Assembly: GCF_963506605.1 (NCBI RefSeq)
Contig: NC_083278.1
Span: 64,666,001-64,730,000 of the forward strand
Length of the DNA: 64,000 nt
Direction: 5' to 3'
Origin: Zootoca vivipara
Lineage: Eukaryota
The position numbers were made by a program. Positions 9,336-15,300 of the stretch are shown here, one piece after another. How positions within the stretch are numbered: the first letter of the stretch is position 1; the number at the start of each line of letters is the position of its first letter.

Positions 9336-12300
9336 ACAATCACTGTGTTCACTTATTATGTATTATGTTACACAAATCTTTGCTAACTCAATGCCATCCA
9401 GATGTTTTTGACTCCCATCAACCCCAGCCAGCATGGAAATGCACATTGCATGAAAGCATAAATGTCCTGGAAGTCCCCACTTCACTAGGCTACCGGTATA
9501 TTGTACTGGCAACAACAAAGCATAATCCCTAATTTGTCATGTCAGCTGACCCTGAGTTTGTGGTTGTTTCCCCCCAAGCATGAGCAGTAAGCCATTAACA
9601 AATCTTGGTTACCACACATAGTTTGTTCACAGAGAAACAAGCCCAGGATTATGGTTTGCTGCTTCTGGTACAGCCAAGGAGAAGAGCACAGGAGAAGTGA
9701 AGCAGGGACTTTGGAAAAGTGTGCCTTGACATGCATTAAACAACAATTAAACTAACTATGGTCTAGCATGACATACAAGCTGGGCCATTAACACACACAC
9801 CAACACAAACCAAAACATCACCACCACAAAACAGTATTTGCAAAAGACATAACATGTGATTTGTAATTTAAATTGTAATATTGTATATTATCCAGGTATT
9901 TTTGTTTGGAAAAATTATTTCCCATGAAATCTATTCCACCACCCTTAGCAAATAAAAACAGATAACATAAAACTGCAGGGACATACATTTTTGTAGTAAT
10001 TAGGATAATTCGCTACTGATAGAAGTCTAAGTTTTAAAGAGTATCCCTCCCCATTGTTTTAAGACATGGTGGATGTACTCATTTTCAGATTTAAGTCTAG
10101 AACTTTAATGACACTTTTCTACAGCTTATGTTCTGATTTCAGAAAGTTTTATCAAAAATGTATTTCAGAATACAGAAAAAAGAGAGTAATGGACTACTTT
10201 TAAAATGCCTTCTGACAGAATGAAATGGAGCCACAGTACAAGCTAAGAAACTTGCCTAAGGTTTATTTATTTATTTGGCTCAGATCTTCTGCTATTCATG
10301 AATCATGAACACTTGGGCACCACTGATTTCCAAGAAACTTAAAAGCACTTGAGTAGAGTAGACCAATACTGTAAGTTTGAAACTCTCAAGCAAAAATGCT
10401 CAATGGAAGAAAAATAAAAATAAAAATGATACGTTCATTTATGGGACACAGTAGCCCTAGAATCCATCGAGAATGGTGTACTTCATTGGACCTGACACCA
10501 CATATAAGACATCGTGGAGGGAGTAGCTTGCACTTCTATTCCCTCATGGTGCAGAAGTGGTTATCAAGCACTGCCATGCTTCACCGTTTATCTTATGATG
10601 CCATTCAATCCTTGGTTGCAAGTGTTGTTGTTTTTAAATCTAGGAACCACCATCCGACAAAAGATGATCAGTTCTAGCCATCTGTTTGGTGGGGGAATTC
10701 CAATCACATAATAAAGGCATAGCTTTCAGCTGTATATTTGCCACTGAGATAAAGAGAGAGAGTTGAAAATATGTTTGTGTGTTTGTGCATTTGCAACAAA
10801 ATGGGATAGAAATAAAAACAATCCTCTGAAATGGGCAACTTTTCTTGTTCACAATCAAGGAGCGCTTGAAGATACTGTGTGCATCTGATATTTTATTAAT
10901 GCACCAGGAAAAAGAAAACAGAACCTAGCATATGACAAAAAGAATTCAGAGTATGTAGCAAAGGTTTGAGTATAGAAGCTGCTGAGCCCAGTAGTTGCTT
11001 TATTATTTCAGCATTATTTGAGAAACAAGATACACAAAAATCATAAATTGTCTACTATACTGTAATAAATTACTGTAGCCACTGGCTGCAATACATAGCA
11101 CAATATAAAACATTATACACTCTGTGAAAACATACCATGAGGATATTTTGAAGGTAAAGAATATTAATGGAAAAGATATCTATCTATTCACACCATTATA
11201 TGTTTTCCTATTACATAAACTAAAAGGTCTGAGTGTAAATTCAACTCTATGGGGGGCACAGCTCCTGCAAAACCTTCCTCCCTGGTATCTTTTTCTCAAA
11301 GTATTCTTTTTTTTTTTACATCTTTGCAGCTGTGAAATCAGATAAAAGCATTTTCCTCTCCTTTGAAGCTTTCTAGAGGAGAAGAGAGAAAGCAGTATTT
11401 TAATGCTAAATATAATGCGAACCAATCACCTTAACTTGGCTGATTTGCATATCCAAAGACGATGTTGTTTCCAAGGTATCCAGCTCTTTTTCTTTTTCAG
11501 TTATCCAGATGGACAAAGCTTCAAATTTTTTGCCAAAATGATCCCACTTGTTTTTCACCATTTCCATGGTTTTAATACTAAAATCAACCATATTTAGTAG
11601 AAAAGAAATTAACAGTTTGTTACTGTTGAACTATGCCCATTTTCTTACCTCTCCAGTTTGCTGAAAATGCTTACATAATAGCATGCCATTTTTTATTTAT
11701 TAAAAAAGCATATATCAAATGTCGGTTTAAGGGTTTTATAAAAGTTATAGCACCTCAGAAGTCTGCCCTTATATTACCTCAGTTTTCTGGGAGTTGCTTG
11801 GCTACTTCCCTCTCCTGAAAAGATGTAGCATAACTTCTCAAGTGTGATTTTAAGAAGTATAGCAAGAGCAGTCTGGCAAGAAGCTACCCTGTAACACCTA
11901 CAACATTGCCAAGAGAACCTAAAAATGTTTTTAATAGGTTTATTACAATTAGGGATTGTTAGCCATTTAAAAATTTGGAACCTATGAATGCCACTCAGAG
12001 CCATTCAGATTAACTGAAGTTCTAGGGAGATGTGATTTTCCATGAAACCAAGACAAAATGTAGAGAAGCAACTCTACAAAATGTAGAGAAGAGGTTTTTG
12101 AACATGTGCATATTTCTGCATATTCCTATCTACCTACTCTGCACCTTGGTATTCAATGCAGCATTGCAGCTATTTGATGCTCACGCAGTTGCAGCAGATC
12201 TGCTCAGGCACCCTTAGGATATTAGCTTTCCATTCTCCCCCTCCCTTAAAAGACATTTGTGGATTAAGGCTGGAGTAAATATTGGAGAGCATGTGTACAA

Positions 12301-15300
12301 TATCTGATGAAATCTCAGACTACTCAGAGCTACTGAGCAAGGCCTTGAAATAGCTCCTGTTCACTGTTCAAGAGTTCATGGTCATTCTTACTACATTACT
12401 TTTCCATAGTAATGTAGTTCCCTCAATCTCTATTGTGCATTTCCTTTGTTCCACTTCTGTTCATTCATAGTTACAATTTTACCACTCCCTCCCACCACCA
12501 GATGTGTAACATGCTTCATTAAGAGCATCCCTGTGTGATTGTGCTCATGCCACAACTGTTCTAGAAGAGAGGGAGAATGCTTCTCAGCAAATAATGCTTG
12601 ATGTGTGGTAGCCTAAAACCCACTCTACTAACTTTTGTTGTTGTTATGCTGGATTTCCTTTCTGGGGAAATTTCAAACTTGCAAAACCCATCAGTTCCAA
12701 AGGAATATGACTGGTTTTCTTTACAACTGATGGCATACATTTTCTATCTTATTTAGGAAGACAAGTCTATTGTTAGCTGAACTGAGGCAAATTGGGCACA
12801 AGAAGCAGGGCAATATGTGAGGCTGCAAAGAATGGCTGTGCATTACGAATAATATAGCTATATACATAAACCATACATTAGGTTAAGTACATATCTGAGA
12901 AAGTCAAACAGTTGAAGATGCATGCGTATTTTTCAACTTAATCATGATTGTCTGTACCTTGTTCATAGATCAATTACATTACATCTGTTAAAGCATGCAC
13001 TGATAAACAGCATCTCACTGGAAGCAATAAAAAGGCACTAGAAGTCTTCTGAAGGAAACTTTTCTACTTGTGGGAAAGAAAGAATAAAGACTGCTAAAAA
13101 AAATTACGTAACTGGTGTTAGGAGAAAGAGAAAAGAGCAATATGGAAAGAAGCCACTCACAACAAAACAAATAGCTTATGAAATTGCATTCTCCATGATT
13201 AGTTCTGGAGCAATATTGTCTTACTAAAATGCAGCTCCTCTCTAAAGGTATTGAAAATTAACCATGAAGCAGGTAAACAAATTTATATAGATTTATTCAG
13301 CAGAAAAAGGGAAGGCATAATGAGAGGCCAAATGCAAAAAAATTATTTCGTTGCACCTGCATCACTGAACACTCTTCATTCTGAAAAGTAATGTTCCAGA
13401 GAACAGAACACTGGACTTAGATCAGAAGTAATGTGGTGCGAATCTCTGTGCAGGCATGAAATCAATGGTTGACTTGAACAACTCACTAACTTTCAGCCTC
13501 AGGTTCTTGCCTATGAAATGGGAATATTAGTGAACTCTCCCACAAAGGTGTTGTGAGGATGAATCAAACTTTAAAACTCTTTTGGGACTATATGATGCCA
13601 TAGATGCATTGATTTGTAGAATTTTCCAAATGAACTAGGATCTCAACAGAACCGGGCAGCACTTCTTGGGAGCAGCTCCTTGGGCTGCGGCACCAGTATG
13701 TATCAGTCCTGAAAGGCAGCAACAGTGATACATTAAGTTTTTGGTTCATTTGTATGAATAAATCTTTGGAGCAATGTGTGGAATTGAAGTGAATGTGTGA
13801 ATTGGCAAGTGACCACTGATATTTCGATTTTTGTTAACAATGATGTGAGTTGTAACATGGTTGCACCTTTAGGCCTTTTAAGAATGCTGGAATGAATAGG
13901 TGGTTTACATATTGCGGCTGCAAATCATTTTAATTGTCACGTGCAGTAGTGAAAAGTTTTTATATGCATAGCAGCCATAACATGTAAACTGGTCCTAATA
14001 TTTCCAAAACTGGACCATTAGGCCATATCCAAGTTAATGAACATGAGGCAGGAAATAGAACTTTGAGCTGAAAGTCCACTCTCCCAAATAAATGTTCATA
14101 TACTGTATAGTGAATTGTTATGTCTGAGCACAAGATTCCTGCCCCCTGACATCTCTTTGCTTTCTCCCATTTTGTAATGAAGCATCATTTTTAGCCACAA
14201 GAAAAAGAACTGGGTTTTAACTTCCGTGAGAAAAAGGCACATTTTTATATTCTCGTGCACGCAGGTTGGGAAAATATGAAGAAAAATACTTTAAAAACTG
14301 GGCAGACTTTTCTTCTAAAGGCTTCAGGCACTTTAGGATATGGCACTATTCATTTATCCTTGCCTGAGTCAAATAATTTACTATATGTGTTACTGAAGTG
14401 TATTATATTACTTCAGTTCTGTGCTCAATTAACTGTGCTTAGTTACATTAAAATTAATTGGCTTGAACATGCATAATTGGATTTATAATTACAGCTTAGC
14501 ATGGCAGTTCTAAGGTCACTTGCATGGAATTGAGTCCCACTCAGATAAATGAGAATCTGCTTCTTAGTGCAATGCATCGAGGGACAAGTTACTCTTTTCT
14601 GTATTGGTTAGTCATAGTAGTTGTTTATACTCGTTCAGTACTACATGGTAATTTCTGCTGTATGACAAACTGAGGTTTACAAAGCCAGTTGTGAATAAAC
14701 ACCGCATTTTGATAAGACAACAAAATGTACAGTTATTGTGTCAGGAAGAAAATAATACTATGACTGTTTAAGAACATACTCTTCTTCAAGTGAAGCTTCC
14801 ATTTTTTTAACTTGTTCCCGGACCGACTTTGCTTGCTGTTGAAGGGTTTGCTTGTTCTTCTCACCAAGCTGTATTGCAAAAGACTTCTTGACAAGAATCT
14901 CAGCCTCCATGGCCATGGCTACTGTCTGCTTAGAAAGTGCCTGTAAATAGGTGTGGAGTTATGAACAGAATACTGTATATTTGTGGGGAAAGCCTAGAAA
15001 TACGTTGTTAGCAACTGGTCAAGCAGTGATCATTATTCATCTTGAGTGGACACCTTCATGAAAAAAAGAACTCCCAGAACACCACTTCATAAAATTACTA
15101 CTTCAAGTATCTCTGGTTTAGATGAGGAATACCCCTAAAGAACAGATTACAAAATAGTATAGTATATAAATAGGTTTTTGAAGGGTACTACCGTGTTTCC
15201 CCTTTTTTAATCCGTAGTCAGAAAGTAAGCCATAGCAGGCTTTTAAAGCATTTGTTCAATATTAAACACCCCCTGAAAATAAGCCATACCTTCACGCAGC

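What the first reader, a model, noticed from the sequence alone, without database searches (positions are those of the whole stretch)
11578..14779. CPG2-type alternative C-terminus and candidate long 3' UTR conserved in a reptile
Seen: reading through the ex33-equivalent donor gives GAG TAT GTT CTT AAA CAG TCA TAG = EYVLKQS* (stop at 14758-14760). Recalled knowledge: the mammalian brain-specific, activity-regulated SYNE1 product CPG2 uses exons 16-33 and ends by the same read-through with EYVIDKS*, which has the same length and shares EYV...S. The following 3.2-kb intron lacks the young TEs common in most other long introns here (only an old MIR-like remnant). It has minus-strand AATAAA signals at 13292-13297, 11939-11944 and 11692-11701. 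Inference: a KASH-less synaptic CPG2 isoform predates the mammal-reptile split.
Basis: partly seen in the sequence, partly recalled or inferred. Interest (0 to 1): 0.68.

Follow-up and report, generated by a model that had tools for sequence, protein, structure and literature searches.

The report
Conserved short-isoform ending in lizard SYNE1
This lizard SYNE1 (nesprin-1) exon can be read through its splice site to give the same short seven-residue ending used by the mammalian KASH-less isoforms Nesprin-1-165 and CPG2; the ending is old and conserved, but a closely related lizard already has it annotated, so it is an ordinary ortholog.

Summary
On the minus strand, exon 14940-14780 ends GA|GTATGT. 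Reading through gives EYVLKQS and a TAG at 14760-14758, and the intron runs 14779-11578. The gene is SYNE1/nesprin-1.

A Podarcis muralis database protein of 1393 aa ends in the identical tail. Of 59 named non-human relatives, 26 end in an EYV... read-through at this junction, and 23 of those 26 tails have exactly 7 residues. They come from lizard, turtle, birds, a marsupial and placentals, and include rat "Candidate plasticity protein 2b". The alternative C-terminus therefore predates the mammal-reptile split.

- EYV is fixed by the exon end plus the donor GTATGT.
- A 7-codon tail is ordinary by itself: 17 of 29 exons here have tails of 8 codons or fewer.
- The AATAAA count is at chance (4 against about 3-4), and 15 of 28 introns are also free of intra-window repeats.

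The ending is not specific to CPG2. In 17 of the 26 models, including the lacertid one, the protein starts at the CH domains (Nesprin-1-165 type). No tool here could test the UTR extent, promoter, or brain or synaptic use. Already known; low interest.

The parts
14780..14940 (-). SYNE1 exon, the last exon shared by the short read-through isoforms and the long isoforms. It starts in phase 0 and ends with the first two bases (GA) of a split codon.
   Evidence: tblastn of P0001/P0002/P0003; 98% identical over 60 aa to the end of Podarcis muralis P0001
14774..14782 (-). 5' splice site AGA|GTATGT. It matches 6 of 9 positions of the textbook consensus MAG|GTRAGT (consensus recalled). The last two exon bases (GA) and intron bases +1 to +6 encode the E, Y and V of the tail.
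   Evidence: E-Y-V invariant in 26 of 26 read-through models
14758..14781 (-). Read-through codons GAG TAT GTT CTT AAA CAG TCA plus the TAG stop (14760-14758): C-terminal tail EYVLKQS*.
   Evidence: identical tail in P0001
11578..14757 (-). Rest of the 3202-nt intron, and the candidate 3' UTR of the read-through mRNAs. Its real extent is unknown. No ORF longer than 76 aa on either strand.
   Evidence: no Rfam family at gathering score; no tandem repeat
13929..13934 (-). ATTAAA hexamer 823 nt after the stop: the first candidate poly(A) signal (inferred only).
13292..13297 (-). AATAAA hexamer 1460 nt after the stop, followed by a T-rich stretch (48% T in the next 50 nt): candidate poly(A) signal (inferred only).
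11930..11944 (-). AATAAA (11944-11939) and ATTAAA (11935-11930) about 2.8 kb after the stop, with a GT-rich stretch downstream: candidate distal poly(A) signals (inferred only).
11692..11701 (-). Two overlapping AATAAA about 3.06 kb after the stop and about 115 nt before the acceptor, with weak downstream T/GT content.
11430..11577 (-). Next constitutive SYNE1 exon (D)IKTMEMVKNKW..., joined to 14780 in the long isoforms.
   Evidence: 25 of 59 relatives are spliced across this junction
39997..40110 (-). Upstream exon holding the conserved Met (ATG 40008-40006, ...DDMAER|F) that lies inside the N-terminal stretch of rat CPG2b. This is where a CPG2-type protein could start. No evidence of a promoter.
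   Evidence: N-termini of P0042, P0027

Best explanation
The stretch is the conserved alternative 3' end of the SYNE1 (nesprin-1) gene, the one that produces short isoforms lacking the KASH domain. Exon 14940-14780 (minus strand) normally splices from its sub-consensus donor GA|GTATGT to exon 11577. If the transcript is instead cleaved and polyadenylated inside the 3.2-kb intron (a composite terminal exon, i.e. intronic polyadenylation), translation runs 7 codons past the exon end (EYVLKQS) to the TAG at 14760-14758. The product is an N-terminal nesprin-1 fragment. It is the Nesprin-1-165/Enaptin-165 type if transcription starts at the CH-domain promoter, and the CPG2 type if it starts at an internal promoter.

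Shown:
- the sequence and the gene identity;
- orthology of the junction with the rat CPG2b end;
- an identical tail in an annotated Podarcis protein;
- conservation of tail length and of the stop across amniotes.

Inferred: that this lizard uses the end, which poly(A) site it uses, which promoter, and in which tissue.
For: Gene identity:
- tblastn maps CH-domain and spectrin exons of nesprin-1 proteins along the minus strand from 63115 to 5944.
- Pfam CH and Spectrin_SYNE1 are found in P0001, and Spectrin_SYNE1 in rat CPG2b.

Tail:
- The tail is in the sequence.
- P0001 (Podarcis muralis, 1393 aa) covers 100% of the 60-aa exon-plus-tail query at 98% identity and ends ...EEEYVLKQS.

Comparative counts:
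- 63 hits came from 8000 scored candidates. Of these, 59 named non-human proteins were counted.
- 26 end in an EYV... read-through: 1 lizard, 3 snakes, 1 turtle, 6 birds, 1 marsupial, 14 placentals.
- 23 of the 26 tails have exactly 7 residues. Among those 23, position 4 is L in 19 and position 7 is S in 18.
- With this intron's base composition, the chance that the first stop falls at that codon is about 0.05 per independent lineage.

Literature:
- Nesprin-1-165 (aa 1-1479) and CPG2 (aa 537-1479) share their end, and residues 1222-1431 of mouse Nesprin-1-165 'correspond to the C-terminus of mouse CPG2' (passages of PMC3296292).
- The reverse primer printed there for the 1145-1431 fragment reads, by my own reverse complement, as ..YVLHHF-stop. 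This matches the tail of the 1431-aa Mus spicilegus model P0043.
- Nesprin 3' ends made by retained introns that add a few residues and a stop are a described pattern (section 5 of PMC3388047).

The intron holds no ORF above 76 aa.
Against: - No transcript, poly(A) or expression data for any reptile could be reached.
- Database models may be built by projecting mammalian proteins onto a genome, or from retained-intron reads. They prove the genomic tail but not its use.
- Poly(A) hexamers are at chance frequency.
- A short read-through tail is ordinary: 17 of 29 exons have 8 codons or fewer.
- The donor (6 of 9 consensus matches) is not an outlier. Several other donors picked automatically also score 6 or less.
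- Snakes do not keep the length: EYVLK in 2 models and EYVLKYIDK in 1.
- Rodents vary positions 4-7 freely, so constraint on the peptide is moderate.
- The next exon's donor also gives a 7-residue tail (VIGSHYI*) that resembles the end of a python model (VIDSHFI). Conservation between lizard and snake alone is therefore weak evidence.
- 25 of the 59 relatives, including gecko, monitor and crocodile models, show only the spliced form.
Confidence: 0.72

Rival explanations
1. One reading: the end belongs to a brain-specific, activity-regulated, synaptic CPG2 isoform made from an internal promoter, and its 3' UTR spans much or all of the 3.2-kb intron.
For: - Rat CPG2b (P0042, so named by its source) ends at the same junction.
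- 9 of the 26 read-through models lack the CH domain. Five of them start near the rat CPG2b N-terminus: owl P0014 and P0016, sparrow P0020, bat P0027 and sea krait P0033.
- The Met of ...DDMAER|F is present in the lizard, with G at -3 and +4.
- CPG2 biology in mammals is described in passages of PMC11545860.
Against: - The only lacertid model with this tail starts at the CH domains (P0001), as do 17 of the 26 models.
- No promoter evidence was found in the window. The one CpG-rich block nearby lies inside a repeated element, downstream of where a CPG2 start would have to be.
- The hexamer and repeat arguments for a long UTR are at chance.
- Tissue, activity regulation and localisation cannot be read from DNA.
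Confidence: 0.3
2. This is a plain constitutive intron in the lizard. The tail is a by-product of a conserved splice site and of slow sequence change, and the database models that end here are annotation artefacts (retained-intron reads or homology projection).
For: - EYV is forced by GA|GTATGT.
- Short tails are the rule (median 5 codons).
- Hexamers are at chance.
- The following donor gives a similar 7-residue tail that is also shared with a python model.
- Gecko, monitor and crocodile models are spliced only.
Against: - The stop sits at the same codon in 23 of 26 models from five amniote groups, against about 0.05 expected per independent lineage.
- L at position 4 and S at position 7 are mostly kept.
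- In rodents the end is backed by cloned cDNAs: rat CPG2b is named by its source, and mouse Nesprin-1-165 was amplified with a primer that lies in the tail (PMC3296292).
Confidence: 0.12
3. The end is used, but bases +7 to +24 are conserved for an RNA-level reason, such as control of the choice between splicing and polyadenylation. The 7-residue peptide itself would have no function.
For: - Positions 5 and 6 of the tail vary widely: K/N/D/H/Q at position 5 and six different residues at position 6.
- Rodents and bats change position 7.
- Snakes change the length.
Against: - The stop position is kept in 23 of 26 models.
- L at position 4 (19 of 23) and S at position 7 (18 of 23) are kept through synonymous-capable codons.
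- The nucleotide sequences of the other species were not available, so codon-level tests could not be run.
Confidence: 0.35

Closest known systems
Nesprin-1-165 (Enaptin-165), the N-terminal KASH-less isoform of mouse Syne1
   Same: It has the CH domains plus the first spectrin repeats and ends at the same exon by read-through. The 1431-aa Mus spicilegus model P0043 ends EYVLHHF. The lacertid model P0001 (1393 aa; CH and Spectrin_SYNE1 domains) has this architecture and the window's exact tail.
   Different: Tail residues 5-7 differ (KQS in the lizard, HHF in mouse). For the lizard there is only a database model, with no cDNA or protein data that I could see.
CPG2 / CPG2b (candidate plasticity gene 2), the brain isoform of rat Syne1
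   Same: Same last exon, same donor read-through and the same 7-residue tail length (rat P0042 EYVLHNF). The internal Met region ...DMAERF is conserved in the lizard.
   Different: CPG2 is defined by an internal start and by brain-specific, activity-induced expression at excitatory synapses (passages of PMC11545860). None of this is shown for any reptile here, and no lizard model with an internal start was found among the 63 hits.
Other nesprin 3' ends made by retained introns (e.g. N1-3'E90, which adds AGAGYPHQ*)
   Same: Same principle: the stop lies a few codons into the intron after the last coding exon, and a poly(A) site lies further downstream (section 5 of PMC3388047).
   Different: Those ends were found by RACE or ESTs in human tissues, at other exons. 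That paper does not list this end under a number that I could match to this exon.
Composite terminal exons made by intronic polyadenylation in general (established knowledge, recalled)
   Same: A weak or sub-consensus 5' splice site competes with a poly(A) site in a fairly long intron, which yields a C-terminally truncated protein.
   Different: The poly(A) site has not been located here, and the donor is not clearly weaker than its neighbours.

Membership tests
SYNE1 / nesprin-1 gene, N-terminal part | Calponin-homology domains followed by nesprin-1-type spectrin repeats, encoded as collinear exons | tested here: met
   tblastn maps 25 exon matches of P0001 on the minus strand from 63115 to 14761. 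Pfam CH (2.6e-40) and Spectrin_SYNE1 (7.4e-71) are found in P0001.
Shared read-through 3' end of Nesprin-1-165 and CPG2 | The same exon-intron junction as in the mammalian isoforms | tested here: met
   The exon aligns to the last residues of rat CPG2b and of 25 other read-through models, all of which break at ...(L/A)(E/A)E|EYV.
Shared read-through 3' end of Nesprin-1-165 and CPG2 | In-frame read-through of the donor giving a short tail and a stop | tested here: met
   EYVLKQS plus TAG at 14760-14758. 23 of 26 models have 7-residue tails.
Shared read-through 3' end of Nesprin-1-165 and CPG2 | Cleavage and polyadenylation inside the intron | tested here: inconclusive
   AATAAA and ATTAAA hexamers are present, but at chance frequency. 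There are no 3'-end data.
Shared read-through 3' end of Nesprin-1-165 and CPG2 | Transcripts that actually end here in this species | not testable with these tools
   No transcript collection or vertebrate genome collection is on hand.
CPG2 proper | Internal start: the protein begins at about spectrin repeat 3 and has no CH domains | tested here: inconclusive
   The conserved Met at 40008-40006 is present, but the same residue is also internal to the long isoforms. No lizard model with an internal start was found among the 63 hits. Bird, bat and sea-krait models do have one.
CPG2 proper | Brain-specific, activity-induced expression and a postsynaptic role | not testable with these tools
   Known for rodents only, from passages of PMC11545860.

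The most novel reading that the evidence does not exclude
The truncation point may be older than the amniotes, and its tail may be a functional C-terminal motif.

Models that stop at this same exon also exist in two cyprinids (Danionella P0052 and Cyprinus P0060). Both end ...GLKRE where the spliced fish forms read ...GLKRD|VK, which fits a one-codon read-through. A shark model (Hemiscyllium P0053) has a Q-Y-V... continuation that suggests the same GTATGT-type donor.

On this reading, a KASH-less N-terminal nesprin-1 made by a splice-versus-polyadenylation switch at this junction dates to early jawed vertebrates. Amniotes then fixed a donor (TAT, not TAA, at intron bases +2 to +4) that extends the protein by an acidic, tyrosine-containing tail, EEEYVLxxS. 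That tail would be kept because it does something, for example as a phosphotyrosine or docking site.
Probability: 0.25. Interest if true: 0.45.

Novelty: already known. Interest (0 to 1): 0.2.

Why it matters
If the lizard uses this end, then the two short KASH-less products of SYNE1 are an old, shared feature of amniotes and not a mammalian invention. Those products are the actin-binding Nesprin-1-165 and, if an internal promoter exists, a CPG2-like protein linked in mammals to glutamate-receptor endocytosis and bipolar-disorder risk. That is useful background for comparative neurobiology, and it helps in judging which parts of the human CPG2 region are constrained. It does not open a new question: the ending is already present in public protein models of a lacertid, snakes, a turtle and birds, and an earlier bioinformatic study is cited as having found good evolutionary support for CPG2 (passage of PMC3981789). 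I could not read that study.

Tried and rejected
- **Poly(A) hexamers as evidence for a UTR.** Counted against shuffles and against the rest of the strand. They are at chance.
- **Absence of young repeats as evidence.** A window self-comparison gives 0% cover for this intron, but also for 15 of 28 introns and 2 of the 5 introns of at least 3 kb. Not distinctive.
- **A weak donor as the switch.** It matches 6 of 9 consensus positions, which is low but not an outlier among automatically picked donors. That script's picks are approximate, and its last line failed after the table was printed.
- **A hidden gene or RNA in the intron.** No ORF longer than 76 aa. The only Rfam match at gathering score in the window is a tRNA-like hit far away. 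No tandem repeat in the intron.
- **The CpG-rich block 15251-16250 as an internal promoter.** It lies inside an element with 25-nt terminal inverted repeats, and the element's arms recur at two other places in the window. I read it as a repeat with a GC-rich insert; a promoter is not shown.
- **The terrapin model's alternative last exon (P0007) and the shark tail (P0053).** Searched for in the window by tblastn. Nothing better than E = 0.88.
- **Literature.** Five look-ups failed because the papers are not held: Cottrell 2004, Rathje 2019/2021, Loebrich 2013, Loebrich 2016, and Simpson and Roberts 2008. The searches 'SYNE1' + 'intronic polyadenylation' (2 papers, neither on this subject by title and abstract start) and 'human CPG2 transcripts' (3 papers that cite it) gave no gene-structure detail.
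Full report
**What is in the sequence.** On the minus strand an exon runs from 14940 (after an AG acceptor) to 14780. It reads in phase 0 as ALSKQTVAMAMEAEILVKK...MEASLEE and ends with GA, the first two bases of a split codon. The intron starts GTATGT at 14779. Read through, the frame gives GAG TAT GTT CTT AAA CAG TCA TAG, i.e. EYVLKQS and a stop at 14760-14758. The mechanical ORF list shows the same end (14758..14916). 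The next exon begins at 11577 behind the acceptor tag 11580-11578 with (D)IKTMEMVKNKW..., so the intron is 14779-11578, 3202 nt. The minus-strand AATAAA hexamers named in the finding are at the stated places.

**Which gene, and whose.** Nesprin-1 proteins returned by the searches map exon by exon along the minus strand, from the calponin-homology exons near 63115 down to about 5944. Pfam finds CH and Spectrin_SYNE1 in the best relative. The window is the N-terminal part of SYNE1. Its exons are 54-100% identical to a Podarcis muralis protein in the tblastn pieces, mostly above 90%, so it comes from a lacertid lizard or a close relative. I do not take it for human. The window holds one run of 200 N (7454-7653), right next to the exon at 7452. 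I left it as it is.

**How the searches were made.** I searched one exon at a time. The query was the single exon with its contiguous read-through (60 aa, one unbroken stretch of DNA). The query was residues 1094-1393 of the database protein P0001. I did not build or search a joined, spliced model of the window's exons; that step was left out.

**Comparative result.**
- One search gave 3 proteins among 12 candidates. P0001 (Podarcis muralis, 1393 aa, starting at the CH domains) covers the query fully at 98% identity and ends ...MEASLEEEYVLKQS, the window's exact tail. A rattlesnake partial protein ends ...EEEYVLK. A gecko protein is spliced across the junction.
- One search gave 63 proteins at E <= 1e-10 among the 8000 candidates scored, limited to proteins of 766-2438 residues. 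Four were left out of all counts: three with no name from their source, and one human.
- Of the 59 remaining, 26 end in an EYV... read-through at this junction: 1 lizard, 3 snakes, 1 turtle, 6 birds, 1 marsupial and 14 placentals. Another 25 are spliced across it, and 8 do neither.
- 23 of the 26 tails have exactly 7 residues. Among those 23, position 4 is L in 19, I in 1 and P in 3, and position 7 is S in 18. Positions 5 and 6 vary.
- The snakes depart from this: EYVLK twice and EYVLKYIDK once.

**What that does and does not show.** E-Y-V is encoded by GA plus the donor GTATGT, so it is splice-site conservation and not independent evidence. A short tail is also ordinary. Measured from the end of each protein match, the read-through tails of the 29 exon matches in this window have a median of 5 codons, and 17 of 29 have 8 or fewer (approximate). 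The informative part is the four free codons and the stop. With this intron's base composition, the first stop would fall at that exact codon with a probability of about 0.05 per independent lineage, yet it does so in lizard, turtle, birds, marsupial and placentals. The tails differ between species, so each is a translation of that species' own genome, however the model was made. The genomic tail is therefore conserved across amniotes, and the ending predates the mammal-reptile split. One caution applies: the models themselves may come from homology projection or retained-intron reads, so they do not prove use. A useful control is the next donor (AAG|GTGATT at 11429). Its read-through is VIGSHYI*, and a python model (P0005) ends VIDSHFI. 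Lizard-snake conservation alone would therefore prove little.

**Not a CPG2 mark.**
- The literature I could read (passages only) says that Nesprin-1-165, formerly Enaptin-165, spans aa 1-1479 and CPG2 aa 537-1479 of the giant protein. It also says that residues 1222-1431 of mouse Nesprin-1-165 correspond to the C-terminus of mouse CPG2 (PMC3296292).
- The reverse primer printed there for the last fragment reads, by my reverse complement, as ..YVLHHF-stop. That is the tail of the 1431-aa Mus spicilegus model P0043.
- In line with this, 17 of the 26 read-through models carry the CH domain, P0001 included. Nine do not, and of those, two owl, one sparrow, one bat and one sea-krait model start near the N-terminus of rat CPG2b.
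- The lizard has the conserved Met of ...DDMAER|F at 40008-40006. That residue is also internal to the long isoforms, and I found no sign of a promoter.

**The candidate 3' UTR.**
- The intron has no ORF above 76 aa on either strand, no tandem repeat and no Rfam family at gathering score.
- AATAAA occurs 4 times (two overlapping), against 2.9 in shuffles and 3.84 per 3202 nt elsewhere on this strand. ATTAAA occurs 2 times against 3.0. The hexamers are no evidence.
- If the end is used, the likeliest signals by context are ATTAAA 13934-13929 (823 nt after the stop), AATAAA 13297-13292 (1460 nt, T-rich downstream) and the pair at 11944-11930 (about 2.8 kb, GT-rich downstream). This is inference.
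- Repeats that recur within the window cover 0% of the intron, but the same is true of 15 of 28 introns and of 2 of the 5 introns of at least 3 kb. The test only sees families with two or more copies in 64 kb.
- The 'MIR-like remnant' could not be tested. No vertebrate genome or transcript collection was available, so conservation of the UTR itself stayed unchecked.

**Mechanism.** The best reading is a composite terminal exon. The donor AGA|GTATGT matches 6 of 9 positions of the textbook consensus (recalled) and is kept in this form from lizard to mammals. It either splices to 11577, or the transcript is cleaved and polyadenylated in the intron. In the second case translation ends 7 codons later, and the protein lacks everything downstream, including the KASH domain. 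A merely retained intron with downstream exons still spliced would place the stop far upstream of later junctions and would probably be degraded (established knowledge). A productive isoform therefore needs an intronic poly(A) site. Nesprin 3' ends of this retained-intron kind are a described pattern (section 5 of PMC3388047).

**Known or new.** The ending is already annotated in a lacertid, in snakes, a turtle and birds, and it is the documented end of two mammalian isoforms. [quoted passage not shown] I could not read that study, nor the primary CPG2 papers, so I cannot say which species they compared. Supplements were closed and not asked for. I therefore rate the finding as already known and correct in its core, too narrow in calling the end CPG2-specific, and unsupported in its UTR argument.

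**Boldest reading left open.** Two cyprinid models end ...GLKRE where the spliced fish forms read ...GLKRD|VK, which fits a one-codon read-through. A shark model continues Q-Y-V... at the same junction. The truncation point may thus go back to early jawed vertebrates, with amniotes having fixed a longer, acidic, tyrosine-containing tail that might be functional.

**Left unchecked.** The genome collection holds only bacteria and archaea and was not used. One protein search and the representative search were left unused, because they could add neither names nor transcripts.

Noticed in passing
window 15186-16410 (CpG-rich core 15251-16250): A 1-kb block with GC 0.66-0.76 and CpG observed/expected 0.7-0.9 lies in the intron just upstream (in gene direction) of the read-through exon. 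It is bounded by 25-nt inverted repeats that are 92% complementary. Its roughly 100-nt arms match 6176-6417 and 34778-35016 at 75-81% identity. A 14-nt motif from the arms occurs 4 times in the window against 0.02 expected. It looks like a repeated element carrying a GC-rich insert with internal repeats. Whether it acts as a CpG-island promoter is unknown.
   Followed up: partly
window 11406-11429 (minus strand): The donor of the next exon (AAG|GTGATT) also reads through to a 7-residue tail, VIGSHYI*. An olive python model (P0005, 928 aa) ends ...QIKVIDSHFI at the same junction. This is either a second conserved alternative end in squamates or an annotation artefact. It serves as a caution for the main finding.
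   Followed up: partly
proteins P0052, P0060, P0053 (no window coordinates): Two cyprinid models end ...GLKRE at the same exon, which fits a one-codon read-through. A bamboo-shark model continues QYVICETSG... for about 50 residues. The truncation point may be older than the amniotes.
   Followed up: partly
protein P0007 (terrapin); searched for in window 1-64000: A diamondback terrapin model splices from the same donor to a different last exon (...EEDGCKGEEQTFDSSFRATMM). No counterpart was recognisable in the lizard window (best E = 1.9).
   Followed up: yes
window 30622-30774 (minus strand): An exon matched by the gecko and monitor proteins is missing from the Podarcis model P0001. At that place P0001 has an odd stretch that matches no exon here. 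P0001 is probably mis-modelled at this point.
   Followed up: no
window 7454-7653: A run of 200 N abuts the start of the exon at 7452. The first few residues of that exon (about 4 aa of the gecko protein) are not matched and may lie in the gap. Not filled.
   Followed up: no
window 50539-50605 (minus strand): A tRNA-like match just above Rfam's gathering score (30.7 bits against 29), inside an intron. It is probably the head of a tRNA-derived SINE and not a tRNA gene.
   Followed up: no
window ~39740-39795 (minus strand): A (CT)n run followed by a (TA)n microsatellite, in the intron after the exon that holds the CPG2-type Met.
   Followed up: no
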